Positions 627-25,069 of a stretch of 64,000 bases of DNA are shown piece after piece. Numbering within the stretch: position 1 is the stretch's first letter; every line of letters starts with the position of its first letter. This stretch comes from a virus (lineage: Duplodnaviria > Caudoviricetes), in IMG/VR virus record IMGVR_UViG_3300028364_000013; one strand, written 5' to 3'. Under the pieces are notes generated by a model. It had not been told where the DNA came from. It did no database searches and was given only the letters and a program-made list of their open reading frames with translations. The position numbers and the translations under genes are program-made.

Positions 627-683
627 TTTTGTAACTTTTTGAATTCCTATCGTTATATAGTTGTAACCAAATAAAAATAAATT

Positions 684-1124
684 ATGTTAAGCTCAATAAA
701 TAAAGAACAGAAATTATATGTAACTCCCTGCGGAGGTGGATTCTCTTGTTTAGGCTTTGACGTTTGCCACAACAAAACTATTAAGTTAGCAAAAGAATTG
801 GATAGAGAAGATTTGATTCCAACACGCAAAGGAACAAAGAAGGCATACAACAATTACGAAACGCTTGTCTCCCTTGCAAGAGAGAAAAACATTGCTACTG
901 GATGGCAAAGCAAAGCAGGGCTTACTCCAGAATTAATTGGCAAAGAAGGTCATAGAGTAGAGGTTGTTACTTCTTATGGAGAAAAAGTTCGTTTCATTGT
1001 AGGAAAGTCTACGGGATGGATTCCTTGCCACCTTGAAATTAAAAGAACAGATTCTTCTGGAGGTGGTGGCGCAATTGGTTCTCCATACAAAAGTATTAAG
1101 ATTGTAGAATACAATGCAAGATAA
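684..1124 (+). CDS. Hypothetical protein
   Basis: 146 aa ORF directly after class A promoter. Confidence 0.85.
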   Translation: MLSSINKEQKLYVTPCGGGFSCLGFDVCHNKTIKLAKELDREDLIPTRKGTKKAYNNYETLVSLAREKNIATGWQSKAGLTPELIGKEGHRVEVVTSYGEKVRFIVGKSTGWIPCHLEIKRTDSSGGGGAIGSPYKSIKIVEYNAR

Positions 1125-1178
1125 ATTGTAACTTTTTGAATTCCTATCGTTATACTATTGTAACCAAATAAGAAAGAG

Positions 1179-1763
1179 ATGAAAAGAAATATAGCAACCA
1201 TAGTAGAACATTATTTAGTAGCCGCTTTATGGACAAATGAGATTGACGATATGTCAGTTAAGTGCAATGTAAGTAGCAAGTCAATTAAAGATGCTATATT
1301 GCAAGTGCAATGCTTCTTAGGTGCAGCTCTCCCTTTGCTTACTGAGGAATGGACAGACGAACAAATAGGTCATGACTTATGGCTTACTCGTGGCGGACAT
1401 GGTGCAGGATTTTGGGATAGAGATTTGCCAAACGGAAAAGAACTTACTGCAATTTGTGAATTGTGTAGATTCAATAGTGAAGTGTGGGCAGACCGTGAAA
1501 ATGATATTGTTCATATTGATGGTGATGAAGAGGCACTTAACTTATTTGAACACTACGAACTTCTTCCTCAAAACGTACAAGACCTTTTAATTGAACTTGG
1601 TGAATTAGAGGACACTTATGAAGATTGCGACAAACTTATTGCAAGGCTTGAAGAATTAGGCTACACTTGTAGTTACTACCTCAACGCTGAACCTTATGAT
1701 TTAAGGTTAAATGAAGAGCCAACTTTTGAAGGTCAAAGCGAACCTTATAATTCTAAAGCATAA
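1179..1763 (+). CDS. Hypothetical protein
   Basis: 194 aa after class A promoter; GHDLWLTRGGHGAGFWDR motif. Confidence 0.85.
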   Translation: MKRNIATIVEHYLVAALWTNEIDDMSVKCNVSSKSIKDAILQVQCFLGAALPLLTEEWTDEQIGHDLWLTRGGHGAGFWDRDLPNGKELTAICELCRFNSEVWADRENDIVHIDGDEEALNLFEHYELLPQNVQDLLIELGELEDTYEDCDKLIARLEELGYTCSYYLNAEPYDLRLNEEPTFEGQSEPYNSKA

Positions 1764-1815
1764 TTGTAACTTTTTAAATTCATATCGTTATACATACATA
1801 ACCAATACATTAGAC

Positions 1816-2088
1816 ATGACAAATTCAGCAAAGAAAAAGAAAATAAAAGCATTAGCAAAGAAAATGTTAAAAACCTCCCTTAAAGAAATGGAGGCTAAGA
1901 TTGATAAGGCTTTAAACTCTGGAGCGTTGGATGTTGACGAATGGGATGAAAACTCAAACCCTTCAATTCTCCCTAAAGTAATTGTTATTGCAATTATGGA
2001 AGATGAGGCAGAGCAATACAAAGCAAAAGGCACTTCATTTGAGAAAGAAATGAAGAAAGATGTTTCTAACTTAAAATGTTTTATATAA
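1816..2088 (+). CDS. Hypothetical protein
   Basis: Start reassigned to the ATG downstream of promoter 1764. Confidence 0.8.
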   Translation: MTNSAKKKKIKALAKKMLKTSLKEMEAKIDKALNSGALDVDEWDENSNPSILPKVIVIAIMEDEAEQYKAKGTSFEKEMKKDVSNLKCFI

Positions 2089-2504
2089 TGATTTACGAAG
2101 TAGAAACATTCAAACTCATAGGGCTAACCATTTTCTTATACCAAGAAGTTGATTACTTAGAATTGGTGAAAGAAAAGAATATGCCAGAGAGACTAATTAA
2201 CACGAGAGTTAATAAGCCTGTGGTAAAACACCCAAGAAGATTTTACGTAAGTGACCTGAAAGAAATTCAGGGTAAGGACATTCAGGTTCTCAATAGAGAA
2301 GAGAGCTCAGACAAGCTGCCTTATTTCGCAGATGTAACGTCAGACATTCCAGGATACCTCAATATTGAGCCAGACACTTACAAGAGCTGTCAGCTAATGG
2401 CAGAGACTCATGGAGGCTACCTACAATTTTTCGATAACAAGACGGAGAAGATTTTAAGAATTGCAATTAATTCAAATACTTACTCTCCCTTAAAAAGCAA
2501 ATAA
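2088..2504 (+). CDS. Hypothetical protein
   Basis: TAATG stop/start coupling with previous ORF. Confidence 0.75.
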   Translation: MIYEVETFKLIGLTIFLYQEVDYLELVKEKNMPERLINTRVNKPVVKHPRRFYVSDLKEIQGKDIQVLNREESSDKLPYFADVTSDIPGYLNIEPDTYKSCQLMAETHGGYLQFFDNKTEKILRIAINSNTYSPLKSK

Positions 2505-2506
2505 AA

Positions 2507-2722
2507 ATGAAAAAGGTAACTTTATACTCAAAAGATTTTAACTTCTTTCTTCAGGAGCAAATAGGAATTGTGACTACTGGCAACGGTAGAGAGTCACGAT
2601 TTTTCTCAAGACTTGACAGTGCTTTGTTTAAAGAGACAAGGCGTAATGAAAAAATGAGTGAAGAGAAGGAAAAAGAAATTTGCAAAGACATTCATTTAGG
2701 ACTAAAATATTATAAAGATTAA
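2507..2722 (+). CDS. Hypothetical protein
   Basis: Adjacent ORF followed by terminator at about 2743-2770. Confidence 0.7.
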   Translation: MKKVTLYSKDFNFFLQEQIGIVTTGNGRESRFFSRLDSALFKETRRNEKMSEEKEKEICKDIHLGLKYYKD

Positions 2723-2852
2723 AAATATTGTTTGGTTACAATAGGGGGGAGGCTTAGGTCTCCCTTTCTTGTTTTTGCTTCGGTACGAACAATGAAATTG
2801 TAACTTTTTAAATTGCTATCGTTATACAGATATAACCAAAGAAAAAGAAATT

Positions 2853-3180
2853 ATGAGACAGTTAAAAAAAGAATTAGAAACATATTGTGAGTTACACTGG
2901 TGGAACATGGGCTCAAAAACTCTGTCCTTCAAAGGAGATTTGAAAGATTTGTTGGAAAAGCAGAACATTACTTTTACCAAGAAAAAAAACAGAAACAGAA
3001 GGAATTTTTACATACACCTTCAAAAGCTCTTATGGTATTAGTTTTAAAACAACTGGCTTGATACATGACTTTCCACACCTTGCAAAGCAGTTTATTCAAA
3101 TGGAATTAGTACGAATGGGTGATAAGTCGCAGCTACGTGTTAGTGGAGCTTGGAGACCTGTTGTAAATGTAAACTATTAA
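2853..3180 (+). pseudogene. Hypothetical protein with apparent frameshift at an A8 run
   Basis: Removing one A at 2982-2989 extends the ORF (TETEGIFTYTFKSSYG...VVNVNY) to TAA at 3180, just before the next promoter. Confidence 0.65.
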
Positions 3181-3231
3181 TTGAGACACAAGATAAATTG
3201 TAACTTTTTAAAAACCTGTCGTTATACAATT

Positions 3232-3726: not shown

Positions 3727-3787
3727 TTGTAAGCGCAGCGGAAAAGCGTCAGCTTGTAACTTTTTAAAAACCTATCGTTATACATAT

Positions 3788-4072
3788 ATGGAAAAAGATA
3801 CTACATACTTAATTAGCGTTGCCATTCGAGATGAGAACGGCAAGGTCGTAGAAGACAAAAAAGGAATTAAAACTACTGGAATGAATTTCGAAATAACAGT
3901 ATTCAACGATAAGCAGTTGGAATTTCAAATGAAAACATTGCACCGTCAGTTTAGAGCATTTTTACCAAACCATAAAATTAACATTGAAGCAGGTTTGCTT
4001 AATAAAATTTCAAGAACTGTAATGTGTATGGCTTCATTTTATGGTAGTGAAGAGAGGTTTGTAAAACACTAA
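3788..4072 (+). CDS. Hypothetical protein
   Basis: ORF bounded by two class A promoters. Confidence 0.8.
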   Translation: MEKDTTYLISVAIRDENGKVVEDKKGIKTTGMNFEITVFNDKQLEFQMKTLHRQFRAFLPNHKINIEAGLLNKISRTVMCMASFYGSEERFVKH

Positions 4073-4145
4073 TTGTAACTTTTTAAAACCCTATCGTTAT
4101 ATTAATATGAAACAAATAGAACTTACCATAGAAACATTTTAAGAG

Positions 4146-4808: not shown

Positions 4809-4841
4809 TTTGGTAATTAAAATCTTTATTCATACATTTGT
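4809..4841 (+). promoter_or_regulatory. Bacteroidota housekeeping-sigma promoter (-33 TTTG / -7 TAnnTTTG)
   Basis: TTTG-N20-TACATTTG upstream of 4861. Similar sites at about 24309-24340 (+), 52196-52227 (-), 38653-38684 (-) and 5607-5639 (-). Confidence 0.7.
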
Positions 4842-4860: not shown

Positions 4861-5028
4861 ATGAACAAAGAAGAGATTTTCGAAGAAATGCAAGAGTTGT
4901 GGACAACTTTTGAAACTGAACACAGCGGAGGAACTAAAGCATCTGCAGGAAGAGCAAGAAAAGCTATTGGTGAAATCAAAAAATTAGTTACTGCTTATAG
5001 AGCTGCATCTGTTGAGGCTGACAAATAA
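4861..5028 (+). CDS. Histone H1-like (Hc1-like) small DNA-binding protein, Bacteroidota type
   Basis: 55 aa ORF absent from the track: MNKEEIFEEMQELWTTFETEHSGGTKASAGRARKAIGEIKKLVTAYRAASVEADK. Has its own promoter and terminator (about 5051-5081). Confidence 0.7.
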   Translation: MNKEEIFEEMQELWTTFETEHSGGTKASAGRARKAIGEIKKLVTAYRAASVEADK

Positions 5029-5159
5029 GAAAACTTAAACTAAACTACAAAAAGCGTTATCATTAATTTGGTAACGCTTTTCTATTTTTATTATAAATAG
5101 ATAAAAAATATAAAATCGAACCCCAATTTCACAATTAAGTTTATAGGGCTATTAACTTG

Positions 5160-5233
5160 CACTCCGTATCGGATTCAAACCGATGGTCTTCTCATAGAAA
5201 GTGAGACGTGTTGGGTCGCTACACTAACGGAGC
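5160..5233 (-). tRNA. tRNA-Glu(TTC), non-canonical D and T loops
   Basis: GCTCCGT/ACGGAGT acceptor; TCTCA-CTTTCTA-TGAGA anticodon arm; T arm ATCGG-TTTGAAT-CCGAT; D loop lacks GG. Confidence 0.75.
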
Positions 5234-5236
5234 GTT

Positions 5237-5321
5237 TGGTCTTGCGTATCGGATTCGAACCGATGAACCTTTCGGGCTGCCTTGAAAGGGCAGTTACTTT
5301 GAGCCGCTTGTATAACGCAAG
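5237..5321 (-). tRNA. tRNA with TTC anticodon, extended (type II) variable arm and encoded CCA
   Basis: CTTGCGT/ACGCAAG-A-CCA; 3-bp D stem; CTGCC-CTTTCAA-GGCAG; variable region CCCGAAAGGTTC; T arm ATCGG-TTCGAAT-CCGAT. Confidence 0.8.
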
Positions 5322-5496
5322 AAATATAAGCACAAAAAAAGAGGATAACACTTGTGCTATCCTCTTGACTACGATTTTGCGATTTAAAAATCCCTCAATC
5401 TGGTTTGTTAACTTAGAGCATAGCGAAGTAGTGGAGTCTCCTCCAAACGTTCACTGTTCTCTATGTTTACAAATCTTTTCATTTTCTTATTTTTTG

Positions 5497-5569
5497 TTGC
5501 GCAGGCCAGACTCGAACTGACGACCTCAAGATTATGAGCCTTGCGAGCTACCAACTGCTCCACCGCACT
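5497..5569 (-). tRNA. tRNA-Met(CAT), initiator-like
   Basis: GAGC-AGTTGGTA-GCTC D arm; CAAGG-CTCATAA-TCTTG; A1:A72 mismatch as in fMet tRNAs, but lacks the three G-C anticodon-stem pairs. Confidence 0.85.
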
Positions 5570-5676
5570 ATATATAAATAGTAATCTTTTTTATTTATTA
5601 TACGCAAATATAAGAATAAAGTTCTATTAAATCCAAATGTTTTTGTAACTTTTTTAAAATTAATCGTTATACACGT

Positions 5677-6003
5677 ATGAAAAGAACAGCTCTATTTACA
5701 CTCACAGGTCAAACATACTGGCACTTTCACGCCATTGGCACAGGCATTATTTTTAATTACCATATTAATGCAAAACAAGTAATAACTACGTGTGAACTTT
5801 CAGGTCAAATGATAGAGGTTAAGGATTATTACCAAGAAGGAGGATTTGATTCACCTGAGGAATTCAGACAAAACTGTATTACAATTTACCAAGAGATGAT
5901 TCAAGACGGAGCGACCATAGTGTTGGACTACATAGACAACCCCGATATTTTTATGAGTGGTGAAGTTGCTATTGGATATGACCCAAAGGTGATTTGTAAC
6001 TGA
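5677..6003 (+). CDS. Hypothetical protein
   Basis: After promoter 5643. Confidence 0.8.
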   Translation: MKRTALFTLTGQTYWHFHAIGTGIIFNYHINAKQVITTCELSGQMIEVKDYYQEGGFDSPEEFRQNCITIYQEMIQDGATIVLDYIDNPDIFMSGEVAIGYDPKVICN

Positions 6004-6066
6004 TTGTCTAATTTGTAACTTTTTAAATTCCTGTCGTTATACAGACACGAACCAATAAAACACGAC

Positions 6067-6634: not shown

Positions 6635-6701
6635 GCTCTCTTTTTTTGTTTGTAACTTTTTGAATTGCTATCGTTATACAACCAGACTAAAACAAAAGAC
6701 A

Positions 6702-8135: not shown

Positions 8136-8417
8136 TTAGTTTTTGTTGCGACTTTATGTGTACTGCATTTGGTACTCTCAATTTTATTTAGTACCTTTGT
8201 TGGTACAATGATTAATTATAGAACTATGGTGATTTATGCAATACAGCTTAGTAATAGCGTTGAAACTTCTTATGACTTAAACGTTATAGAACGGAAAGCA
8301 AAGAAATACGCTGAACAAAAAAAGACAGCAACTATAACCGAGAACGGAAACGAGATTGGATGGATAGGTGAGGATTTAACTAAAATAAAAGGTTGGGGAT
8401 GGAATATAAAGAAATAA
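8127..8417 (+). CDS. Hypothetical protein (real start probably 8208 or 8226)
   Basis: ORF track; the N-terminal part overlaps the palindrome. Confidence 0.6.
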   Translation: MLCLVFVATLCVLHLVLSILFSTFVGTMINYRTMVIYAIQLSNSVETSYDLNVIERKAKKYAEQKKTATITENGNEIGWIGEDLTKIKGWGWNIKK

Positions 8418-8623: not shown

Positions 8624-8844
8624 GTATAGAAGAATTTTTAAAAGACAGACCAAGCCTTTCTTTGCGTAGACTGGAAACAGAGGCTGATTTGCCAACTAAA
8701 ACTTTAAGTCATTACGTTAATGGTAGAAGAAAATTGAGTGCTGAACATATTGAAAAACTGACGCCTGTATTGTCGAAGTACGGATTTAAGCAACAATTTG
8801 AAAATGATGGATGGTCAGTTGACGACTTGTTGGCCAAGTTGTAA
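8620..8844 (+). CDS. Cro/XRE-like helix-turn-helix protein
   Basis: SLRRLETEADLPTKTLSHYVNGRRKLS fits the HTH_XRE pattern; ATGA coupling. Confidence 0.7.
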   Translation: MSIEEFLKDRPSLSLRRLETEADLPTKTLSHYVNGRRKLSAEHIEKLTPVLSKYGFKQQFENDGWSVDDLLAKL

Positions 8845-8904
8845 CTTTTTAAATTCCTGTCGTTATACCAGTACCTAAGAATAATTAATTAAAACCTCAA
8901 AATT

Positions 8905-9420: not shown

Positions 9421-9532
9421 TAATACAGGGGGGCAGAAATGTCCCCTTTGTGCGTTTACGCCAAGTAGCTAAGCGGATTGTAACTTTTTAAATTCCTGTC
9501 GTTATAACCTTGAGCATTAAAAACTTCAACAA

Positions 9533-10051: not shown

Positions 10052-10108
10052 TTGTAACTTTTTAAATACTCATCGTTATACAAATATAACACTTTAAAAC
10101 CTCAACAA

Positions 10109-10839: not shown

Positions 10840-10907
10840 GCCTACAAGCCTCCGTAACAGGGGGCTTTTTTGTGCTTTGTAACTTTTTGAATTCCTATCG
10901 TTATACA

Positions 10908-10975: not shown

Positions 10976-11060
10976 CCTATATTTTATTGTTTTAGGCGTT
11001 TTGTAACTTTTTGAATTGCCATCGTTATATAGTCATAACCAATAAAAAAACATTAAGACA

Positions 11061-11493: not shown

Positions 11494-11550
11494 TTTGTAA
11501 CTTTTTAAATTCCTGTCGTTATACACTTGTAACCAATAAAAACATTAGAC

Positions 11551-12357: not shown

Positions 12358-12447
12358 GTAAAGTCTCCCTTTGTGCGTTTACGCCAAGTAGCGAAGCGGA
12401 TTGTAACTTTTTAAATAATAATCGTTATAAAATAAAAACACGATACC

Positions 12448-12810: not shown

Positions 12811-12868
12811 TTTTGTAACTTTTTAAATCCGTGTCGTTATATACTTGTAACATAAAAAATATAACAAC

Positions 12869-13429: not shown

Positions 13430-13512
13430 AACTAAAGCCCTCATTGACGTGGGGGCTTTTTGTAACTTTTTAAATTACCATCGTTATACACTTGAACTAA
13501 TAAAAAAACATT

Positions 13513-13725: not shown

Positions 13726-13782
13726 TTGTAACTTTTTAAATTGCCATCGTTATACAAGTGAACCAATAAACAAATACATATT

Positions 13783-14699: not shown

Positions 14700-14760
14700 C
14701 AAGTTGTAACTTTTTAAATCACCATCGTTATATAATTAACTAATAAAAAACCAAAATAAA

Positions 14761-15525: not shown

Positions 15526-15622
15526 AATTATAAATTTAGAAAACGTTCTTTGAAGTATTGTTTTATAAAAATAGAAAACAGAGTTATTTTGGTTTTTCAT
15601 TTTTATTTTATATATTTATTAA

Positions 15623-16721
15623 TATGAAAGATATATTAATAAAATTTAAAAAGGTTCATGGTGAATTGTATGATTATTCATACGTAGATTATAAAGACAG
15701 ATTAACTAAAGTAGCTATAGGGTGTAAAGTTCATGGTGAATTCCTTCAAACTACAGCAGCCCACATTAGTGGCCAAGGTTGTCCAGAGTGTGGTAAAATT
15801 AAAAGAAGGATAGGGAAGAGAATTACTTTTGATGACTTCCTGATAAGAGCTAAAGATAAACATGGAAACAAATTTTCTTATAATAAAGAATCTTATGTTG
15901 ATATAGAAAAAGCTTTTGTTATTGTATGCCCTAATCATGGTGAGTTTACACAGTCTCCCAAAACTCATATAAAGAGTCACGGTTGTCCAAGATGTGGAAA
16001 CAACTCTGCATCACACAAACTCTCCCTTACTCGTCAAGAGTTTGTAGATAAAACTATCAGCGTTCATGGTGACAAATTCATTTATGATAAAGTCAAATAT
16101 ATCAACAATAGAACTCCTATTATTATAACTTGTAAGTTTCATGGAGATTTTAATCAAAAACCTAATTATCATTTATCTGGAAATGGTTGTCCTAAATGTG
16201 GAGGCACCTCTAAACTTTCTCTTGAAGGCTTTATAGATAGGAGTAATTTGATTCACGATTTTAAATATGATTACTCTAAATCAGAATTAATCAATAGCAA
16301 AAAAAAAGTTAAAATAATTTGCTTAAAGCATGGAGAATTTATGCAATCTCCCTCTCACCATATGATGGGCTCAGGATGCCCAACATGTAATGAGTCTAAA
16401 GGAGAAAAGTTGGTTGCAAAAATTCTTAAAGAAAAAAGCGTTAACTTTGTAAGACAAAAGAGATTTAAATATTGCAAAAATAAAGCAGTTCTCCCTTTTG
16501 ATTTTTATTTACCAGACTTAAATGTTTTGATTGAATTTGATGGTGCGCAGCATTTTTATCCTTGGAGATTAAAAGATACAGAAGTTGCAAAATTAAAACT
16601 TAAGAAGACACAAGAAAATGACCTTATCAAGACTGAATTTTGTAAAAAAAATGAAATTAAATTATTAAGAATTCGTTTTGATGAGAATGTTAAAAATAAA
16701 TTAGATAAACTATTAAAATGA
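15623..16721 (+). CDS. Homing-endonuclease-like protein: four zinc-ribbon (DUF723-like) repeats plus C-terminal PD-(D/E)xK/Vsr-like nuclease
   Basis: Repeats of C..HG.F.Q....H..G.GCP.C; LPFDFYLPDLNVLIEFDGAQHF C-terminus. Confidence 0.85.
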
Positions 16722-17695
16722 AGCCAGGCCAAAACATAATTAAACAAATAGAAGACGGGAATTTCAATTTAAGTTCGCATCCAGTTTTTAGTCATAATCC
16801 AAAAAGATTAATGGATATTGGTTTTAATAAATCTCTTGAGTTAATTAAAAGAAGAGTTGGAGACCACAATCTCTCCCCAGTATATTTATTTAATTTATAT
16901 AAAACGTATCAATTTAAAATAGATATTATTGAGAGTAGCATTAAATCAGAGCTTGAACAAATAGCGGAAGATACAATTAGAGAAATGTATGATGTACCAG
17001 AAGATATAAATATTAAACCAAAGATTGTTAATCAAGATGATATTGAATATGATTTTGACTCTGAAAATGAAAAAATAGAAGTCTCCCCAGAAAGACTAAG
17101 ATTAATAAAAGAAGAAGCAAATAAAAGAATAATACTAAATTCTATTGTTCATGGTTCATCTGTTATGATTTGGTCAAGCGCATATTATATTGTAAAAGAA
17201 AAACTTGATGAATTAAATAATAAATTAATTGAACTATATGATATTTATTCTGCAGTTGTTAGTTATTTACTTTGGCTTCAGGAACCAAGTCAAGATTTGT
17301 CTGGAGTAGAAAAACAAGGAGTTTGTGAAATTGATTTTGAAGATGGATTAAGTTGTGAAGGAATAAATTTTCCAGTACTTTTATTGGAGACAAATAAAGT
17401 GGTGATTGATTATCTTATTTGTAAAGGTATACCAACCGATTTTAGTGAAGAAGAGTTAAAATTATATTATGCTCTTTCAGATGATTATAATCAAGAAATT
17501 TGGCATAATACATTGTCTCCAGTTATATATTCTGATTTTTTAGAAACAATAGAAATAGAATCAAATAAATTACCTGATGTAATATCAAAATTATCTCAAC
17601 TAAATTATGAAGAATTAAAAACTGTGTTCATATCTATACAACAAGATTCAAAAGAATCAGGAAAAATAGAACTTTTAAAATTTAAAATCGTATAA
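16718..17695 (+). CDS. Hypothetical protein
   Basis: 325 aa, ATGA-coupled; not preceded by a class A promoter. Confidence 0.8.
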   Translation: MKPGQNIIKQIEDGNFNLSSHPVFSHNPKRLMDIGFNKSLELIKRRVGDHNLSPVYLFNLYKTYQFKIDIIESSIKSELEQIAEDTIREMYDVPEDINIKPKIVNQDDIEYDFDSENEKIEVSPERLRLIKEEANKRIILNSIVHGSSVMIWSSAYYIVKEKLDELNNKLIELYDIYSAVVSYLLWLQEPSQDLSGVEKQGVCEIDFEDGLSCEGINFPVLLLETNKVVIDYLICKGIPTDFSEEELKLYYALSDDYNQEIWHNTLSPVIYSDFLETIEIESNKLPDVISKLSQLNYEELKTVFISIQQDSKESGKIELLKFKIV

Positions 17696-17848: not shown

Positions 17849-17899
17849 ATAATACAGACTGTAACTTTTTAAATATTAATCGTTATAAACATAATAGTC

Positions 17900-18116: not shown

Positions 18117-19025
18117 ATGAAAACGAAAAGAACATATGATGAAGTTGAGATTATTAATACTCCGTCTATTAAGACAGGGATTAAAACTCTTGACCTGTTC
18201 CTTTCTAACAATGGAGGGTTCGAACTTGGAAACCTGATTCTTATGACAGGAACTTCAGGTGCAGGTAAGACAACTCTTTGCAAACTGATTCAAAGAGAAA
18301 TTAAAAAACCAACATTATTTCACGCCTTAGAAAGTTTAGCGTCTTCAGTTAAGAGACAAACTCTTAGAATTAAAACACATTCCAACTGTTTTATTACTGA
18401 CGGGAAAGATTACCAAGACTTTGATGAGTTCATGGATTTCATTTATAGAGATAAGCCAAGATTTGTTATGGTTGATTCACTTCAACACGCTGTGAAACAA
18501 CTTAGGAAAAAAGGCATGGGAAAAGATGAGGCTTACCACCACGTACTGGACTCTTTATACAGATGGAAAGATGAGACGCAAGGAATTGTAATTCTTATTT
18601 GTCAGTTGAATAAAGACAACACGTTTTCAGGACCGTCAGGAATGTTGTTCGATGCGGATGTTCAGGTACACTTAGAGTACAACTCTAAAACAGGAGTTAG
18701 AACAATGGATACGAAGAAAAATAGAATGGGTCAACTGGACTCGATTTATTATGAGTTCTCTTCAGGAGTTGAGGTGATGAAGTTCTACACTCAAGAAGAA
18801 TGGGATGTAATTAAAATGGGTGTCACTTTGCCAGAGATGTTAATGAACATCATCTTCCAGTATTCAAACGCCTACAGGAACCACGATTCGTATTCTGTAT
18901 TTAAGAAAGAATTCAACAAGAAGATTAAGGTGATTTATAATTCTATTGATGATGACCTTGAGATTTGTTTATCAGTTACAAAACTGATGAGTGAATTAAC
19001 TAAAAAGTATTTTGTAACTTTTTAA
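18117..19025 (+). CDS. RadA/Sms-like RecA-superfamily ATPase (no Zn finger or Lon-like domain)
   Basis: Walker A GTSGAGKTT, Walker B VMVDSLQ, ICQLNKD..FSGP, KNRMG (RadA KNRFG-like). Confidence 0.8.
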   Translation: MKTKRTYDEVEIINTPSIKTGIKTLDLFLSNNGGFELGNLILMTGTSGAGKTTLCKLIQREIKKPTLFHALESLASSVKRQTLRIKTHSNCFITDGKDYQDFDEFMDFIYRDKPRFVMVDSLQHAVKQLRKKGMGKDEAYHHVLDSLYRWKDETQGIVILICQLNKDNTFSGPSGMLFDADVQVHLEYNSKTGVRTMDTKKNRMGQLDSIYYEFSSGVEVMKFYTQEEWDVIKMGVTLPEMLMNIIFQYSNAYRNHDSYSVFKKEFNKKIKVIYNSIDDDLEICLSVTKLMSELTKKYFVTF

Positions 19026-19069
19026 ATAACCATCGTTATACATACACGAACCAATAAATAGAGAGAGAT

Positions 19070-19711
19070 ATGACAAACGTAAAGAAAGATTCAGAACAAG
19101 CTACTAAAGATAAAGCAAACGTAGCAGTGCTTCAAGATATTAATGCCACAGCAAGAGCAAAAGATGATGCTTTTAGTAAGCTGTATGGTAGACACAACCA
19201 ACAAGTCCGCATTCACTTCCTCAAGAGATTGAGAGATACAGATGTTGCTGAGGATTTGCTTATGATAACTTTTGTAAAGGCGCATGAGAACATTAACACT
19301 TATGACCCAAAAGTGGGTGCATTTTCTACTTGGTTGTACAAGATTGCAAACAACTCTTTGATTGACTTGTTGAGAAAAGCAAAGTTCGAAGTTCTTTCTT
19401 TGGATTCGCTTCAAAGTAAGACGTCAGACGACAATGATGGAATGGAATTTCAATTAGATTCAGATACTCCAAACCCATTGCAAATTCTTGTTCATGATGA
19501 GGTAACAAAACAAGTTTCTGATGCAGTTAATTCTATTAAGTCCAAAAAAGTTCGTGAATTAATGATTTGCAGATACATTGATGAAATGAGTTTTGAAGAA
19601 ACGGCAAAGGCTCTTGGTCTTGAATTGAATTCAACACTTAGAACAGCTGTTGCAAGAGGTAAAGAGATTCTTAAAAAGAAATTAGCTAACCTTGAAAATA
19701 ATGTCTCATAA
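19070..19711 (+). CDS. ECF-type (sigma-70 group 4) RNA polymerase sigma factor
   Basis: AFSKLY...AEDLLMITFVKA...FSTWLYKIANNSLIDLLRK (region 2); RYIDEMSFEETAKALGL...RGKEILKKKL (region 4). Confidence 0.9.
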   Translation: MTNVKKDSEQATKDKANVAVLQDINATARAKDDAFSKLYGRHNQQVRIHFLKRLRDTDVAEDLLMITFVKAHENINTYDPKVGAFSTWLYKIANNSLIDLLRKAKFEVLSLDSLQSKTSDDNDGMEFQLDSDTPNPLQILVHDEVTKQVSDAVNSIKSKKVRELMICRYIDEMSFEETAKALGLELNSTLRTAVARGKEILKKKLANLENNVS

Positions 19712-19849: not shown

Positions 19850-19883
19850 GCCCCGTGGTTATGATACACCACGGGGTTTTTTG
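19850..19883 (+). terminator. Intrinsic terminator
   Basis: CCCCGTGGT...ACCACGGGG followed by T6. Confidence 0.8.
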
Positions 19884-19944
19884 TGCGTTGCCCCGAACGA
19901 GCGCAGCGTTGTAACTTTTTAAATATCCATCGTTATACAAATAA

Positions 19945-20030
19945 GAAAAGGGCCTGGCGGAGAAAGTCGGAAGAGTAGACTCCAACGTGCGTTGGATTTT
20001 GTGAACAAGCTCCAACCTGCCCAATACTCT
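19945..20030 (+). ncRNA. Candidate small RNA, AAGAGTAGACTCCA family copy 2
   Basis: Directly after promoter 19909; core at 19970-19986; second TCCAACCTGCCC at about 20011. Confidence 0.55.
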
Positions 20031-20280
20031 CGTGAAATATAAATTTATAATTTTAGAAAAATAAAGCCCGTTATTAACATATCGCCTAAAAAAGATTGTT
20101 TTAGGTAGAACATTTTAAAATCTCTTACGTATAAGATAATGAAAGAACAAATAGATTTATATTTTTTACACTTTGTAACATTTTGTAACATTTTGTAACT
20201 TTTTAAATCTATGTCGTTATACAGTCATAACCAATGACCGCAGGGCAAGACCTGCTTTGCAGTCGCAAAAAACAATTATT

Positions 20281-21156
20281 ATGAAAAATGAAAATGCATT
20301 TAACTGGGACATTAAGCAAACAGGAATTCTTGACATTAATGGAAACCCTATAAAAGGGTACAAAGAAATTACTCGTGATGACAATGGGTCAAGCATTGCT
20401 GTTATGAAAGAGTCTTATACGCCAATGACAACTCAACAATTCTCTGATACAGCAAACGAAGTTGCAGGTGCAATTGGAGGTTCTGGACTTATTTTTAAGG
20501 ATTGGAATGACAATAGTGTTGAAGGGCAAATGGGAGCTAACAAGCCCGTGATTACTTGTCAGATGGAAATGAGCGAGCCTCTTGAGATTGCAGGCTCAAA
20601 GATTGAAGGTAAGTTAACAATTGGTGTTGGATTTGACGGAGGGCGTAGCTTCTTTATTGGTCACACAAATACTTACCTTAGATGCACAAATGAATTCTCT
20701 TCAATTGTGAAGGACTTCAAAAGCAGACTTACTGTAAATAACATGGTAAGAGTTGAAGACATTATTAAAAACATTCAAACGTATAGAGATTACGAAAGAA
20801 ATTTATACGAAAACTTTGAGAGATTTCATAACACAAAAATTGATGAAAAGATTGTTCAAGAATGTCTTGCACGTCTTGTTGATTTGACTGTTGAAGAGAG
20901 AGCAATGACTGTTAAGGAGAGAAACACAGAGTTGTCTTCTCAAAAGTTGAACAAGATTGATGACATTACTGCAAGTATTAGAACAGAAATGGCAGAGCTT
21001 GGTAACAACGCTTGGGGATTATTCAATGGGGTCACACATTATTCTACACATATTATGAACTCAAGAGGTTCAAATGAGTTGAGTACAATGTTCGGAGCAA
21101 AGAACAAAGCAAACCAAATTGTTTATGGCTTAGGTCTTGAATTACTTGATGCATAA
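20281..21156 (+). CDS. DUF932-family (phage/plasmid) protein
   Basis: FDGGRSFFIGHTNTYLRCTNEF and NNAWGLFNGVTHYSTH motifs. Confidence 0.8.
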   Translation: MKNENAFNWDIKQTGILDINGNPIKGYKEITRDDNGSSIAVMKESYTPMTTQQFSDTANEVAGAIGGSGLIFKDWNDNSVEGQMGANKPVITCQMEMSEPLEIAGSKIEGKLTIGVGFDGGRSFFIGHTNTYLRCTNEFSSIVKDFKSRLTVNNMVRVEDIIKNIQTYRDYERNLYENFERFHNTKIDEKIVQECLARLVDLTVEERAMTVKERNTELSSQKLNKIDDITASIRTEMAELGNNAWGLFNGVTHYSTHIMNSRGSNELSTMFGAKNKANQIVYGLGLELLDA

Positions 21157-21231
21157 GATGCTAAACAACAAACTTAAGGAGAGCAGAAATGTTCTCCTTT
21201 TTTTGTGACCAATTTTGTCTAAGGAAAGTTT

Positions 21232-21325
21232 AGGGCAGGGGTGGATTGCCTGTCAAGGCTGTGCTCTTGACTTTAAGGCACAGGGCACTTATTCTTACCT
21301 TGCCTGTTTCACTCAAGGGACATAG
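21232..21325 (-). ncRNA. Candidate antisense-oriented small RNA from the reverse class A promoter
   Basis: Promoter 21326-21354 points left; only a 4-codon ORF; 3' end TCCACCCCTGCCCTAAACTTT resembles copy 1. Confidence 0.45.
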
Positions 21326-21411
21326 TTATAACGATAATGGTTTAAAAAGTTACAACCGTTGGAATTCTGGTTTTTAATTCATATTTATCAGAAAATCTAA
21401 AACCAACAACC

Positions 21412-22284: not shown

Positions 22285-22319
22285 AAAATAGAACATTCTA
22301 AATTTATAAACGTATAAGA

Positions 22320-22453: not shown

Positions 22454-22554
22454 CTTTTATAGTAAGTTGCTTCGTTACGAACAACGAAGTTGCAAGCAAA
22501 GCGGAAAATGAATTTATTCATTGTAACTTTTTAAATTCCTGTCGTTATACAATC

Positions 22555-22767
22555 ATGGGAAACCCAAATTCAAAAAAACACAAAGCAAACCACGCAGGCT
22601 ACAGAGATAAGCCAGGGCGTAGAGCAATTGACGCACTTTGCGGAATGTACGCTGCAATTGGTAATGTAGAAATTCTGGTTGGAACGCCAGGAGAAGGAAA
22701 GCCGAGACTCGGAACTCCAGTAAACAAAACACAGCCAAAACCAGGTACACAGCTTAGTTTATTCTAA
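22555..22767 (+). CDS. Hypothetical basic protein
   Basis: Bounded by class A promoters. Confidence 0.7.
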   Translation: MGNPNSKKHKANHAGYRDKPGRRAIDALCGMYAAIGNVEILVGTPGEGKPRLGTPVNKTQPKPGTQLSLF

Positions 22768-22820
22768 ATTGTAACTTTTTAAATTGACATCGTTATACAC
22801 TTAAATTAAAAACAATTATT

Positions 22821-23324: not shown

Positions 23325-23422
23325 ACTTTGTAACTTTTTAAATTCCTGTCGTTATACAGATATAACATAACCTGCGTGAGATTGTTCATGCAGGTTTTTT
23401 AACCACATTAAAACTTAGAGAT

Positions 23423-23752
23423 ATGAAATTCGTTTACATTATTGAAATTGGACAGCTTAGCAAATTAGAGAACAAATTTAACTTCTATGACATGGAAGTG
23501 TTCCCAAGTCAAAAGGCAGCTGACCATGTTGTTAAAAATATGATTGAGTGTAATACCTCTGGAGATTTTGAAGAACTTGTTAAGCAAGGTGATGTTAGAA
23601 TTGAGAAGTCTGAAGAAGGCGGATTCAAGAGAGGTGAAGTTAGTCATACTGTTTATACTTACAATTGCATGGGGTCTGGATTCAATAACGTTCCTACCAA
23701 AATGACAGTGAGATACGTAGTTAGAAAAATGTTAGTAAACAGAAACTTTTAA
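23423..23752 (+). CDS. Hypothetical protein
   Basis: After promoter 23328. Confidence 0.75.
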   Translation: MKFVYIIEIGQLSKLENKFNFYDMEVFPSQKAADHVVKNMIECNTSGDFEELVKQGDVRIEKSEEGGFKRGEVSHTVYTYNCMGSGFNNVPTKMTVRYVVRKMLVNRNF

Positions 23753-23756
23753 TATT

Positions 23757-23942
23757 ATGGCAGACGCAAGAACAAAACAAACAAGAGTGCTTACTATTAC
23801 AATAGAAGTCTCTTCAGATGTAAAACTTCCTTCAGACCATGAGATGGTCTTAATTGCTGCAGCAGCTTCAGGAGCTATGGCAGACAAAGCAAAAGAGAAA
23901 GGGTTGACGCTCGATAACTTAATAACTCATAGCAATGACTAA
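23757..23942 (+). CDS. Hypothetical protein
   Basis: Adjacent ORF. Confidence 0.65.
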   Translation: MADARTKQTRVLTITIEVSSDVKLPSDHEMVLIAAAASGAMADKAKEKGLTLDNLITHSND

Positions 23943-24270
23943 TTTATTCTGGATACAAAAATATAGACAACAAATTTTCGCTCTGGAGCTTCTGGTGGCG
24001 ATTATTTTTGGACCTGCTCTGGCAAACATCCTGAGCGGCTCCGTCCTGTTAAGCCTGGTAATGATTGCAGCAGTTTTTCTATTTTTAGAAATTACTCTGG
24101 CTTTTACCAGGGTCACCTTTGCGAAGGTAGCCCATGAGAATACCAAGAAGATTTATGATAAGACACAGGCAGCACACAAAAAGATTAAACAGGACTACCA
24201 GGATATGACTGGTGAGCAACTGGACAAGCGCAGGGCAATACAGCATTCAAAAAAGAAACGTAAGCCCTAA
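23935..24270 (+). CDS. Membrane protein (2 TM)
   Basis: Hydrophobic N-terminal half, basic tail. Confidence 0.7.
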   Translation: MTNLFWIQKYRQQIFALELLVAIIFGPALANILSGSVLLSLVMIAAVFLFLEITLAFTRVTFAKVAHENTKKIYDKTQAAHKKIKQDYQDMTGEQLDKRRAIQHSKKKRKP

Positions 24271-24361
24271 GAAGGCAAAAACAATATAAACTAAAAAGAG
24301 ATTATCATTTGGTAGTCTCTTTTTTAATCACTACATTTGCTTACATAAAAATTAATTAGAG

Positions 24362-24598
24362 ATGAGACTTACAGTACACGTATCAGGCGCAAAGAAAGAC
24401 ACGCACGAAAAGAAGACCAAAGAAGGAATTGTTAATGTTAAAAAAACATTTAACACTCTATCGTTCTCAAGTGTGAACCCAGAAGATGTTGGAAGCATCC
24501 TAAACAAGATTAAAGCTGAAGGGCTTGGAGAGCCTACCAAGCATTACCTCTCTAACGAGAAGATTCCTGGTCACGCCAGAGGGAAAAGAAAAGCCTAA
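24362..24598 (+). CDS. Small basic hypothetical protein
   Basis: Host-type promoter upstream; terminator at about 24619-24650. Confidence 0.75.
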   Translation: MRLTVHVSGAKKDTHEKKTKEGIVNVKKTFNTLSFSSVNPEDVGSILNKIKAEGLGEPTKHYLSNEKIPGHARGKRKA

Positions 24599-24709
24599 AC
24601 CCTGAACACAAATATATGAAAACCTTCAGCTATGCTGGGGGTTTTTTTTTGTCCAGTCGGGACTGGTCAAATTCAGATTTGTAACTTTTTAAAAACACAT
24701 CGTTATACA

Positions 24710-24790
24710 AATGTCGATGCGAACAGCGAGACGGGTCTGGTCACCGAGGTGAACCGAAAGAGTAGACTCCAGCCTGCCTTATATTTTCTT
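24710..24790 (+). ncRNA. Candidate small RNA, AAGAGTAGACTCCA family copy 3
   Basis: Between promoters 24679 and 24832; GAGACGGG...AAGAGTAGACTCCAGCCTGCC. Confidence 0.55.
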
Positions 24791-25069
24791 GCCAACCATT
24801 TTGTAAGCGAATCGGAAAAAGATTTTATTCTTTGTAACTTTTTAAATTCTTATCGTTATACAAGTGTAGACAATGAGAGACACATCTACTACCCCAGAAC
24901 TGAAAAACTTATGGCAGGGTTAATCCACTCCTGCCCCAAACTTTTTTGCCCAATTTATTATTTGAGCCTGCTCCATCGAGCACGCAGTGCTTATGCAGAA
25001 TCATTCTTAATAAGCATCATTTAAAAAGTTACAATTTTATAGAACATTTGTTGATAACTTACGTATAAG

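What the first reader, a model, noticed from the sequence alone, without database searches (positions are those of the whole stretch)
629..24860. 31-copy ECF-type promoter regulon with its own ECF sigma gene inside it
TTGTAAC-N15-CGTTATA precedes nearly every early gene, including the ECF sigma factor at 19070 (promoter 19012). The AAC...CGT architecture is that of ECF sigma promoters (B. subtilis SigX TGTAAC..CGAC, SigW TGAAAC..CGTA). Inference: a phage ECF sigma drives an autoregulated regulon on host RNA polymerase, or the phage hijacks a host ECF sigma before its own is made.
Basis: partly seen in the sequence, partly recalled or inferred. Interest (0 to 1): 0.8.

Follow-up and report, generated by a model that had tools for sequence, protein, structure and literature searches.

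The report
Phage promoter array, ECF-sigma type
A large lake phage of Bacteroidota-type bacteria carries about 74 near-identical copies of a phage-private promoter shaped like those read by ECF sigma factors, together with its own ECF sigma gene; but a second, equally phage-private promoter class fits that sigma at least as well, so the system looks like a sigma cascade, not one self-driving regulon.

Summary
TTGTAAC-N15-CGTTATA occurs 32 times in the window, against 0.56 expected by chance. It occurs 74 times in one 44-kb block of the 142-kb record. Strand consistency and a fixed distance to start codons show these are promoters: 9 have the ATG exactly 5 nt after the motif and 41 have a 22-29 nt leader. 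The gene at 19070 is a true ECF-type sigma. Its nearest characterised relative is B. subtilis SigW, but it is not an ortholog.

The phage has a second ECF-like class, TAGAAC-N16-CGTATAA (class B). Neither class is enriched in sampled Flavobacteriales genomes, so hijack of a host ECF sigma gains no support. Fourteen metagenomic relatives carry sigma orthologs (44-77% identity). In them the class A boxes change without matching changes at the sigma's DNA-reading residues, and those residues change without class A changing. Class B stays constant and fits both the invariant residues and SigW geometry. A conserved class B promoter heads the sigma operon.

My reading: class A makes the sigma, which then reads class B (about 0.35-0.4). 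The scan noted both classes in overlapping windows of this genome. The record is a fragment, and an unverified second sigma lies outside it.

The parts
629..657 (+). class A promoter (exact); ORF 684-1124 follows
1126..1154 (+). class A promoter (exact)
1764..1792 (+). class A promoter (exact)
2798..2826 (+). class A promoter (exact)
3198..3226 (+). class A promoter (exact); ATG at 3232, 5 nt after the motif (leaderless type, 164-aa ORF)
3754..3782 (+). class A promoter (exact); ATG at 3788 opens ORF 3788-4072 (leaderless type)
4073..4101 (+). class A promoter (exact)
5643..5671 (+). class A promoter (exact); ATG at 5677 opens ORF 5677-6003 (leaderless type)
6013..6041 (+). class A promoter (exact)
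6650..6678 (+). class A promoter (exact)
8260..8288 (+). doubtful copy (TTGAAAC, degenerate T-tract); probably not a member of the array
8839..8867 (+). class A promoter (exact)
9478..9506 (+). class A promoter (exact)
10052..10080 (+). class A promoter (exact)
10877..10905 (+). class A promoter (exact) with no ORF behind it; drives a small-RNA candidate at about 10911-10974
11001..11029 (+). class A promoter (exact)
11495..11523 (+). class A promoter (exact)
12401..12429 (+). class A promoter (exact)
12813..12841 (+). class A promoter (exact)
13460..13488 (+). class A promoter (exact), directly after a hairpin plus T-run
13726..13754 (+). class A promoter (exact); ParB-like gene 13783-14592 follows
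14704..14732 (+). class A promoter (exact), just after a weak tRNA-like match at 14630-14699
17667..17695 (+). class B promoter (TAGAAC-N16-CGTATAA) at the head of the sigma operon; ATG of a 48-aa ORF lies 6 nt after it; conserved in 11 of the 12 relatives with enough upstream sequence
17859..17887 (+). class A promoter (1 mismatch, CTGTAAC) inside the sigma operon
19012..19040 (+). class A promoter overlapping the stop of the KaiC/RadA-like ATPase gene (18117-19025), ending 29 nt before the sigma ATG
19070..19711 (+). ECF-type sigma factor gene (213 aa), the only sigma found in the 142-kb record
19850..19877 (+). strong intrinsic terminator (10-bp stem, 7 G-C pairs, T-run) closing the sigma operon; no anti-sigma ORF lies between sigma and terminator
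19909..19937 (+). class A promoter (exact) with no ORF; small-RNA candidate at about 19943-20003
20106..20134 (+). class B promoter, in tandem upstream of the class A copy at 20193; the tandem is conserved in relatives
20193..20221 (+). class A promoter (exact) before the DUF932 gene (20257-21156)
21327..21355 (-). class A promoter (exact), the only minus-strand copy in the window; no ORF behind it (small-RNA candidate)
22289..22317 (+). class B promoter followed by a hairpin and no ORF
22521..22549 (+). class A promoter (exact); ATG at 22555 opens ORF 22555-22767 (leaderless type)
22769..22797 (+). class A promoter (exact)
23328..23356 (+). class A promoter (exact)
24679..24707 (+). class A promoter (exact) with no ORF; small-RNA candidate at about 24713-24788
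24832..24860 (+). class A promoter (exact), the last of the island
25040..25068 (+). class B promoter at the right edge of the island

Best explanation
Shown:
- The motif (class A) is a phage-private promoter of ECF-sigma architecture. It has a -35 box TGTAAC with a T5 tract, a 15-nt gap and a -10 box CGTTATA.
- It is repeated about 74 times, at a median spacing of 500 bp.
- It serves a 44-kb block of about 100 small genes and several non-coding units.
- A second phage-private ECF-like class (class B, AAC-N16-CGTATAA) serves other genes of the record.
- The block contains the only sigma gene of the record, a SigW-like ECF sigma without an anti-sigma. This gene lies behind both a class A and a class B promoter.

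Inferred:
- Transcripts start about 6 nt after the motif. They are either leaderless or carry a 22-29 nt AACCAAUAAA-type leader.
- Host core RNA polymerase carrying a phage-specified sigma2/sigma4-type factor reads these promoters. I put this general part at about 0.85.

Specific commitment (about 0.35-0.4): the two classes have different readers and form a cascade. A lineage-specific phage factor that is not in the available sequence reads class A. That factor may be a second sigma, possibly delivered with the DNA. Class A transcription makes the ECF sigma. The ECF sigma then reads class B, including the class B promoter at the head of its own operon, which gives positive feedback.
For: Promoter nature:
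- There are 32 copies against 0.56 expected and 74 in one block.
- Orientation follows the downstream gene.
- Distance to the first ORF start is bimodal. Nine copies have the ATG exactly 5 nt after the motif and 41 have it at 22-29 nt. The ORF listing independently shows ORFs starting at 3788, 5677 and 22555.
- Many copies sit directly after hairpin plus T-run terminators.

Phage-private:
- The class A core gives 8 hits against 9 for the control in 200 Flavobacteriales genomes.
- Class B gives 3 against 14 in 61 genomes.
- 185,579 species genomes hold only 11 exact class A hits, about the chance level.

Two readers:
- The classes are sharply distinct, with no intermediates. They differ in gap (N15 against N16), in the -10 box (CGTT against CGTA) and in the start offset (5 nt against 6 nt).
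- Tandem B-then-A promoters before the DUF932 gene recur in every relative whose contig covers that region (L015, L017, L018, L027-L030, L038), and a similar tandem stands at the start of the window phage's block.

Sigma fits class B:
- The nearest curated family and the nearest solved structure are both SigW. SigW promoters are TGAAAC-N16-CGTA, and CGTA gives SigW selectivity (PMC5758882).
- Asp at the RpoE-Asn84 position is invariant. Arg at the Arg171 and Arg176 positions is kept in all but one ortholog each (Lys in P0007/L038 and in P0011). Asp there goes with -13C/-12G and Arg171 with -31C (PMC7776599 and its preprint).
- Class B keeps AAC and CGTATAA in every relative where it is seen.
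- Its -35/-34 bases differ between the clade with Thr at position 172 (TAGAAC in 31 of 48 copies) and the clade with Val (0 of 7).
- A class B promoter heads the sigma operon in the window phage and in 11 of 12 relatives with enough upstream sequence.

Sigma does not track class A:
- L139 has a rebuilt recognition helix but a class A motif identical to the window's.
- L030 keeps the helix but its -35 box is CCGAC.
- L018 class A is TGTGAT...TGTTAGAG although it keeps Arg171 and Asp84.

Paradigm: in phiEco32, host sigma-70 reads the early genes and the phage sigma gp36 reads the middle and late classes (PMC12276001).
Against: - No transcription data exist for this phage.
- The proposed reader of class A has not been seen. 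The only hint is an unchecked first-stage note of a 466-aa sigma-like ORF outside the 142-kb record, which I could not read.
- Class A is itself a textbook ECF promoter. It sits 29-60 nt before the sigma gene in all 15 phages. In cellular ECF sigmas that position is the usual place of the autoregulatory promoter.
- The residue-to-base rules are statistical (R2 about 0.4-0.6 in PMC7776599).
- The co-variation seen for class B amounts to one phylogenetic event.
- Class B is constant although the sigma's L3 loop varies, including an indel.
- Arg at the RpoE-176 position predicts G at -35, but TAGAAC has A there.
Confidence: 0.38

Rival explanations
1. The ECF sigma at 19070 reads class A, drives its own gene from the copy at 19012 (positive autoregulation), and turns on the whole 74-promoter block. 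Another factor reads class B and seeds the first sigma through the class B promoter at 17667.
For: - Class A lies directly before the sigma gene in all 15 phages examined.
- Class A has the ECF hallmarks AAC, T-tract and CGT, and a spacer within the 14-17 bp range reported for ECF sigmas (PMC5758882).
- Class A varies by lineage, as expected for a phage-encoded reader, and this is the only sigma found.
- The two phages with the most altered -35 boxes, L017 and L018, carry unique residues at helix positions 175 and 178.
- phi4:1 and phi17:2 lack both the sigma and the motif.
Against: - L139 changes seven helix positions, including 172, 175 and 178, without any change in class A.
- L030 changes three -35 bases with no distinctive helix change.
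- Thr, Val or Ile at position 172, the main determinant of -34, all go with T at -34.
- L018 has T at -31 despite Arg171. L018, L042 and L039 have T at -13 despite Asp84.
- phi4:1 also lacks class B, so its absence there does not discriminate between the classes.
Confidence: 0.27
2. One sigma reads both classes. The 19070 product recognises AAC...CGT in both, and other factors or promoter strength set the timing.
For: - Both classes share AAC, a T-rich stretch after it, and CGT.
- In the Val172 clade their -35 boxes are nearly the same: TTGTAAC against TTGAAAC or TTGTAAC.
- Overlapping recognition among ECF sigmas is known in B. subtilis (PMC5758882).
- Only one sigma was found in the record.
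Against: - ECF sigmas are sensitive to single-base and spacer changes (PMC7776599).
- The classes are discrete, with no intermediates, and differ in gap and start offset.
- Conserved tandem B-then-A pairs would be redundant.
- L018 class A has lost both AAC and CGT while its class B keeps them.
Confidence: 0.13
3. Class A is read at first, or always, by a host ECF sigma that the phage exploits.
For: - Two orthologous loci keep the same boxes with diverged spacer and flanks, upstream of a thioredoxin-like operon. They are L141 and L147, from two Bacteroidota assemblies; L147 lies in G002, which is unpublished.
- One Flavobacteriales assembly (G003) has three to four copies just upstream of genes, one of them of the OmpA family.
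Against: - There is no enrichment in 200 sampled Flavobacteriales genomes: 8 hits against 9 for the control.
- The total of exact hits in all species genomes is at chance level.
- Within the phage lineage the boxes change (TGTCAC, CCGAC, TGTGAT, CGCTATA). That is hard to reconcile with a conserved host factor.
- No sigma gene lies next to the cellular copies.
- The host is unknown.
Confidence: 0.07
4. The repeats are not promoters. They could be recombination, replication or packaging signals, or binding sites for a repressor.
For: The extreme conservation, including part of the spacer, is unusual for sigma-read promoters.
Against: - The structure is bipartite with a variable middle.
- The strand follows the genes.
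- The offset to start codons is fixed, including nine ATGs exactly 5 nt downstream.
- Copies are placed after terminators.
- Relatives keep the same geometry with different letters.
Confidence: 0.03

Closest known systems
Bacillus subtilis SigW (ECF01) and its promoters TGAAAC-N16-CGTA(TA) with a T-tract next to the -35 box (PMC5758882; structure 5WUQ)
   Same: It is the best curated-family hit (100.7 bits) and the best solved-structure hit (E 4.6e-17) for the phage sigma. The two share FSTWLY.IA.N..ID in region 2 and the T-x-R/K-T...RG recognition helix. Class B has the same AAC-N16-CGTA geometry. Class A has the same AAC plus T-tract plus CGT logic.
   Different: The scores are far below the SigW ortholog cut-offs (209 and 243 bits), so this is not SigW. 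There is no RsiW-type anti-sigma. The targets are about 74 (class A) and 25 or more (class B) phage promoters, not an envelope-stress regulon. Class A has a 15-nt gap and CGTT.
Phage phiEco32 gp36 sigma with gp79 (PMC12276001)
   Same: A phage-encoded two-domain sigma redirects host core polymerase to phage-private promoters. The sigma reads later promoter classes than the host-read early genes.
   Different: gp36 is only a distant sigma homolog. It reads a -10-centred AATGTA element. phiEco32 early genes use host sigma-70 promoters, whereas here the large early-looking block has no host-type promoter.
Phage sigma cascades of SPO1 (gp28, then gp33/34) and T4 (gp55/gp33). This comparison rests on my own knowledge and was not checked here.
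   Same: Successive promoter classes are each read by host core with a different phage-specified factor. Tandem promoters of different classes stand before the same gene.
   Different: Those phages start from host-sigma early promoters. Neither uses ECF-type sigmas or AAC...CGT promoters.
Promoter and polymerase co-variation in T7-like phages (T7, T3, SP6, K11). This comparison rests on my own knowledge.
   Same: Many near-identical copies occur within one genome. Related phages carry lineage-specific variants, which implies a co-evolving phage-encoded reader.
   Different: T7-type promoters are single-block and are read by a single-subunit polymerase. Class A is bipartite and sigma-type.
Large aquatic Bacteroidota phages with core sigma genes ('moraphages', PMC12619734); jumbo phage group 2 with phage sigma factors (PMC7824862)
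   Same: They are large aquatic phages with predicted Flavobacteriia hosts. They lack their own polymerase and encode sigma factors.
   Different: Membership of this phage in those groups was not tested. Those papers describe no promoter classes. Their shared sigma is annotated as sigma-F-like, not ECF.
Cellulophaga phages phi4:1 and phi17:2 (Lightbulbvirus)
   Same: They are the closest cultured relatives by the 717-aa protein (54% and 46% identity).
   Different: They have no sigma region-2 gene, no class A or class B motif, and no highly repeated motif of this kind.

Membership tests
ECF (group 4) sigma-70 family factors (gene 19070-19711) | Sigma region 2 domain | tested here: met
   Pfam PF04542 scores 54.3 bits against a cut-off of 24, covering residues 38-105. 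The six-frame search of the record gave 56.9 bits.
ECF (group 4) sigma-70 family factors (gene 19070-19711) | Sigma region 4 helix-turn-helix | tested here: met
   PF08281 alone scores 19.1 bits, below its 25.7 cut-off. The full-length model TIGR02937 sigma70-ECF scores 80.9 bits against 42.9 over residues 33-205. The alignment to SigW runs through the recognition helix.
ECF (group 4) sigma-70 family factors (gene 19070-19711) | No region 1.1 and no region 3; small size | tested here: met
   The protein has 213 aa. The ECF model covers residues 33-205 end to end, and only r2 and r4_2 are hit in Pfam.
ECF (group 4) sigma-70 family factors (gene 19070-19711) | Co-transcribed anti-sigma factor (common but not universal) | tested here: not met
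   No ORF lies between the stop at 19711 and the terminator at 19850-19877. The upstream genes are an ATPase and small ORFs.
SigW orthologs (NF007223 / TIGR02948) | Score above the equivalog cut-off | tested here: not met
   The scores are 100.7 bits against 209 and 81.3 bits against 243.1. The protein is SigW-like but not SigW.
ECF-type promoters (class A motif) | AAC in the -35 box and CGT in the -10 box | tested here: met
   Both are invariant in 73 of 74 copies. The definition of the family follows PMC5758882 and PMC1540707.
ECF-type promoters (class A motif) | T-tract at -30 to -26 and a spacer in the ECF range | tested here: met
   TTTTT follows AAC directly in 73 of 74 copies. The AAC-to-CGT gap is 15 nt. 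PMC5758882 gives 14-17 bp for ECF sigmas.
ECF-type promoters (class A motif) | Transcription depends on an ECF sigma | not testable with these tools
   This needs in vitro transcription or a reporter assay.
Regulon of the phage's own ECF sigma (class A) | Promoter boxes co-vary with the sigma's specificity residues (RpoE positions 171, 172, 84) across relatives | tested here: not met
   L139, L030, L018, L042, L137 and L138 are counter-examples. The rules are statistical, so this lowers the claim without excluding it.
Regulon of the phage's own ECF sigma (class B) | Promoter boxes agree with the sigma's specificity residues across relatives | tested here: inconclusive
   C at -31 and CG at -13/-12 are invariant, matching the conserved Arg171 (Lys in one ortholog) and the invariant Asp84. 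TAGAAC against TGAAAC follows Thr172 against Val172, but that is a single split in the tree.
Bacteroidota housekeeping promoters (TTTG at -33, TAnnTTTG at -7) | TAnnTTTG box about 20 nt after TTTG | tested here: not met
   Class A has no TAnnTTTG. Genuine copies of that type occur elsewhere in the window, at 4809-4840, 24308-24339 and 5605-5637 on the minus strand.

The most novel reading that the evidence does not exclude
This giant phage bypasses host sigma factors altogether. A phage sigma-like protein made late and carried in the virion programs host core polymerase for the 74 class A promoters at entry. These make an ECF sigma that reads the genome-wide class B. A third factor reads the late CTATTTATA class. 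This would be a fully phage-encoded three-tier sigma cascade, whose first tier co-evolves with its promoters as T7 polymerases do.
Probability: 0.2. Interest if true: 0.8.

Novelty: new variant of a known kind. Interest (0 to 1): 0.55.

Why it matters
Phage sigma factors that retarget host polymerase are known. An ECF-type phage sigma embedded in two discrete ECF-like promoter classes has not, to my knowledge, been described for Bacteroidota phages. Here those classes number about 74 and 25 or more copies in the available 142 kb.

The promoters are short, extremely uniform, and come in natural variant sets across relatives (TGTAAC, TGTCAC, CCGAC, TGTGAT; CGTTATA, CGCTATA, TGTTATA, TGATATA, TGTTAGA). 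That makes them a ready-made set for testing the ECF recognition code. It also offers candidates for orthogonal expression parts for Bacteroidota.

Neither class looks host-like, and the sigma gene has no host-type promoter. The system therefore raises a concrete question: what reads the first promoter class when the DNA enters the cell?

Tried and rejected
- RNA evidence: no RNA holder was listed for the region or for the sigma gene. Only lake and salt-lake DNA runs hold it, so no reads were laid.
- Relatives in IMG/VR: the sigma protein, the sigma alignment and both motif patterns gave no informative relatives. Hits were single chance matches, plus one 9-kb fragment (L133) with three class B copies.
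- The contig said to carry the identical sigma (longest 364 kb) could not be fetched. The rest of the genome, including the noted 466-aa sigma-like ORF, was therefore not examined.
- LR756500.1 is a 462-kb uncultured phage with 54% identity in the 717-aa protein. It has four to five sigma genes but no class B motif. It was too distant to use.
- Lys at helix position 178 (Met in L017, Gln in L018) at first looked like the determinant of the altered -35 boxes. I rejected this because L139 has Val there and an unchanged motif. The position is also not a base contact in the RpoE region 4/DNA structure.
- I rejected a 15-nt gap as an argument against ECF reading after PMC5758882 gave 14-17 bp as the ECF range.
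- Upstream regions of 60 distant ECF homologs (about 30-35% identity) gave no clear autoregulatory consensus.
- Reading class A as a sigma-70-type or Bacteroidota sigma-A-type promoter does not fit.
- A resemblance of class A to sigma-28-type promoters (15-nt spacing, CGATAA-like -10 box) was considered only from memory and was not tested.
- Rfam found nothing for the promoter-driven non-coding units.
- The 717-aa protein, annotated in one phage as a putative RNA polymerase, has no Pfam match. I did not pursue it.

Full report
**What the window is.** The window is the reverse complement of bases 279-64278 of a 142,155-bp IMG/VR virus record rated 65% complete. Its 717-aa protein is 54% identical to one in Cellulophaga phage phi4:1 and 46% identical to one in phi17:2, both of genus Lightbulbvirus. 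The DNA occurs in lake-water and salt-lake metagenomes. First-stage notes on other windows place features of the same genome more than 200 kb beyond this window's end. The identical sigma protein is on record on a 364-kb contig. The record is therefore a fragment of a much larger phage genome, and any statement about what the phage lacks applies only to these 142 kb.

**The observation.** TTGTAAC-N15-CGTTATA matches 32 times at up to 2 mismatches. Shuffles gave 0.56 +/- 0.72.
- Twenty-nine matches are exact. Site 17859 has CTGTAAC. Site 8260 is a degenerate outlier that I would not count.
- All but one (21327-21355) are on the + strand.
- The conserved unit is longer than reported. TTGTAAC TTTTT (A/G)AAT is followed by four variable bases, then (A/G)T CGTTATA. 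In most copies a leader (A/G)TAACCAA(A/T)AAA follows.
- The array runs on past the window start. The record holds 74 copies in one 44-kb block, window coordinates -18948 to 24860, at a median spacing of 500 bp.
- The block holds about 100 + strand ORFs with a median length of 97 aa. Fifty-seven have a copy within 120 nt upstream.

**Are they promoters?** Several independent features say yes.
- Orientation follows the downstream gene.
- The distance from the motif to the first ORF start is bimodal. It is exactly 5 nt in nine cases (ORFs of 70-164 aa) and 22-29 nt in 41 cases. The mechanical ORF list shows ORFs beginning at 3788, 5677 and 22555, each 6 nt after a motif end. This points to a start site about 6 nt after CGTTATA and to a set of leaderless mRNAs.
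- Many copies follow directly on hairpin plus T-run terminators.
- Nine copies have no ORF behind them. Most of these lead into short units with a shared 3' segment, which are candidate small RNAs.

**The sigma gene.** ORF 19070-19711 (213 aa) matches Sigma70_r2 at 54 bits and the full-length ECF model TIGR02937 at 80.9 bits against a 42.9 cut-off. Its best named hits are SigW models, but far below their ortholog cut-offs. The nearest solved structure is B. subtilis SigW, 5WUQ, at E 4.6e-17.
- It is the only sigma found in the record, both by Pfam region 2 in six frames and by a family HMM against all ORFs.
- No anti-sigma ORF follows it. A strong terminator stands at 19850-19877.
- Its closest phage homologs in GenBank reach only about 32% identity and come from crAss-like and Lak phages.

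**A second ECF-like class.** Motif discovery outside the block found (T)AGAAC-N16-CGTATAA, here called class B, with 25 copies in the record.
- It stands before most gene groups of the minus-strand region at 26-62 kb.
- It also stands at a few + strand places: 17667, 20106, 22289, 25040 and the left edge of the block.
- It too gives leaderless genes, with the ATG 6 nt after the motif in six cases.
- A late-looking motif CTATTTATA (27 occurrences in the record, most before genes of the arm upstream of the window) and a handful of Bacteroidota housekeeping-type promoters (TTTG-N20-TAnnTTTG) also occur.
- First-stage notes on other windows report class B throughout the rest of the genome.
- Classes A and B differ in gap (15 against 16 nt), in the fourth base of the -10 box (T against A) and in start offset. 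No intermediates occur.

**Host-type or phage-private?** The class A core with its T-tract gave 8 hits against 9 for the reversed control pattern in 200 sampled Flavobacteriales genomes. Class B gave 3 against 14 in 61 genomes. Across one genome for each of 185,579 species there are 11 exact class A matches, about the number expected by chance for AT-rich DNA.

Two exceptions deserve mention.
- Two Bacteroidota assemblies keep the boxes at orthologous loci with a diverged spacer, before a thioredoxin-like operon (L141 and L147). L147 lies in G002, which is flagged as unpublished, so that claim rests partly on unpublished data.
- One Flavobacteriales assembly has a few copies just upstream of genes.

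Overall, neither class looks like a common host promoter. The host itself is unknown.

**Relatives.** The sigma has a family of metagenomic homologs at 45-94% identity. I obtained DNA for 14 phage fragments carrying orthologs: L015, L017, L018, L027-L030, L038-L040, L042 and L137-L139. Gene order around the sigma is conserved.

Every fragment has a class A-type motif in the same geometry directly before its sigma gene, and many copies elsewhere. The letters differ by lineage.
- The -35 box is TGTAAC in eleven fragments, TGTCAC in L017, CCGAC in L030 and TGTGAT in L018.
- The -10 box is CGTTATA or CGTTATG in most fragments. It is CGCTATA in L027, L028 and L038, TGTTATA in L042, TGATATA in L039 and TGTTAGA in L018.
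- The conserved part of the spacer also differs by lineage.

Class B, by contrast, keeps AAC(A/T)T...CGTATAA in every fragment where it is seen. A class B promoter stands 0.4-1.4 kb upstream of the sigma gene, at the head of its operon, in the window phage and in 11 of 12 relatives with enough upstream sequence. Tandem class B then class A promoters precede the DUF932 gene in every relative whose contig covers that region. phi4:1 and phi17:2 have no sigma and no class A motif, and phi4:1, whose whole genome was read, also has no class B motif and no comparable repeat.

**Which class does the sigma read?** I mapped the sigma onto E. coli RpoE. In the RpoE region 4/DNA structure, Arg176 contacts G at -35, Ser172 contacts -34, Phe175 contacts -33 and Arg171 contacts -31 (PMC1540707). 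Mutagenesis shows that position 171 sets -31, that position 172 (with 173) sets -34, and that position 84 sets -13/-12, with Asp favouring C-G (preprint of PMC7776599).

In the phage family, Asp84 is invariant, and Arg171 and Arg176 are kept in all but one ortholog each, with Lys in their place. Positions 172-175 and 178 vary.

Class A does not follow these residues.
- L139 has a rebuilt helix (seven changes) and a class A motif identical to the window's, spacer included.
- L030 has an ordinary helix but three changed -35 bases.
- Thr, Val and Ile at position 172 all go with T at -34.
- L018 has T at -31 and T at -13 although it keeps Arg171 and Asp84.
- An apparent link between position 178 and the altered -35 boxes of L017 and L018 is broken by L139.

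Class B agrees with the invariant residues in all phages. Its -35/-34 bases differ between the Thr172 clade (TAGAAC in 31 of 48 copies) and the Val172 clade (0 of 7). That is only one split in the tree. Class B also has the gap and the CGTA box of SigW promoters, and CGTA is what makes a promoter SigW-selective (PMC5758882).

On the other side, class A is a model ECF promoter, and the same paper describes the T-tract at -30 to -26 as an ECF promoter element. Class A also sits where an autoregulatory ECF promoter is normally found. The residue rules are statistical. Class B has A, not G, at -35 in the TAGAAC form despite Arg176.

**Reading.** The general part is well supported. These are phage-private, sigma-type promoters of ECF architecture. 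They form one of two such classes, and they travel with a phage ECF sigma.

The discrete classes and the conserved tandem pairs argue for two readers acting at different times. Both classes are phage-private, so either assignment needs a second phage factor that I could not see.

The sigma gene has no host-type promoter within reach. The nearest host-type promoter on its strand is 11 kb upstream, with terminators in between. Whatever reads the first class must therefore already be present at entry, or else act through leaky transcription.

I weigh the assignments as follows.
- Cascade, in which class A makes the sigma and the sigma reads class B with feedback through its operon promoter: about 0.35-0.4.
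- The sigma reads class A and autoregulates: about 0.27.
- One sigma reads both classes: about 0.13.
- A host ECF sigma reads class A: about 0.07.
- The repeats are not promoters: about 0.03.
- The remainder covers readings I have not named.

The phiEco32 precedent, where the phage sigma reads the middle and late classes and host sigma-70 the early genes, fits the cascade (PMC12276001). I could not read that sequence and give it no weight as evidence.

**Comparison and novelty.** Phage sigma factors and sigma cascades are known kinds, for example SPO1, T4 and phiEco32. Large aquatic Bacteroidota phages with sigma genes have been described without promoter analysis (PMC12619734, PMC7824862). 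Three things are new here:
- the ECF type of the sigma;
- two discrete ECF-like promoter classes with very many uniform copies;
- lineage-specific promoter variants across relatives.

I class this as a new variant of a known kind, of moderate interest. The main open question is which factor reads which class, and a simple reporter assay can answer it.

Noticed in passing
window 10911-10974, 19943-20003, 24713-24788 (+); about 21222-21321 (-); also window coordinates -15710, -12761 and -673 outside the window: Class A promoters with no ORF behind them lead into short units. Each has a variable 5' part and a shared 3' segment, GGAAGAGTAGACTCCAAC.TGCC or the related GTAAGAGTAATCCAC.CCTGCCC. Similar units lie in relatives L015, L017, L018 and L030. 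There is no Rfam match. They look like a family of phage small RNAs.
   Followed up: partly
window 5159-5637 (-): Two tRNA-Glu(UUC) genes and one tRNA with a CAU anticodon lie on the minus strand inside the + strand block. Upstream, a Bacteroidota-type promoter (TTTG...TATATTTG), a class B promoter (AAC-N16-CGTATAA) and a CTATTTATA late-type box overlap or abut. This suggests expression in all phases.
   Followed up: partly
window 26135-62232 (-): Class B promoters (about 16 copies) precede most gene groups of the minus-strand region. Several give an ATG exactly 6 nt after CGTATAA, for example the genes ending at 30411, 46194 and 55297 on the minus strand.
   Followed up: partly
window 35982-37259 (-): A 425-aa protein has a PARP-type ADP-ribosyltransferase catalytic domain (Pfam PF00644, 88 bits). 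It lies in a class B transcription unit and is a candidate host-modifying enzyme.
   Followed up: no
window coordinates -77000 to -27000 (record only) and window 48736: The motif CTATTTAT(A/T) lies 15-30 nt before many start codons in the arm upstream of the window. It is a likely late promoter class, reminiscent of the T4 late TATAAATA box.
   Followed up: no
window 4809-4840, 8168-8199 and 24308-24339 (+): Three similar host-type promoters (ATTTGGTA-N17/18-TAC.TTTG) lie inside the class A block, before small ORFs (4861-5028 and 24362-24598). They are possibly the only genes of the block that the host holoenzyme can read.
   Followed up: no
window 15558-16721 (+); L027 6586-7479 and 12191-12883: Genes with DUF723/DUF4379 zinc-ribbon domains and a PvuRts1I-like domain vary in presence and position among relatives. 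They look like homing-endonuclease-type mobile genes. L018 carries an IS605 OrfB/TnpB gene in the block.
   Followed up: no
window 14630-14699 (+): A weak tRNA-like match (Rfam tRNA at 29 bits, exactly at threshold; not called by ARAGORN) ends 5 nt before the class A promoter at 14704.
   Followed up: no
L141 3466-3494 (-) and L147 1750-1778 (+): Two Bacteroidota assemblies keep TTGTAACTTTTT-N10-CGTTATA with diverged spacer and flanks. A conserved 36-nt stretch and a thioredoxin/AhpC-like gene follow. This is a probable cellular ECF-type promoter with the same boxes as class A. L147 comes from a genome flagged as unpublished.
   Followed up: partly
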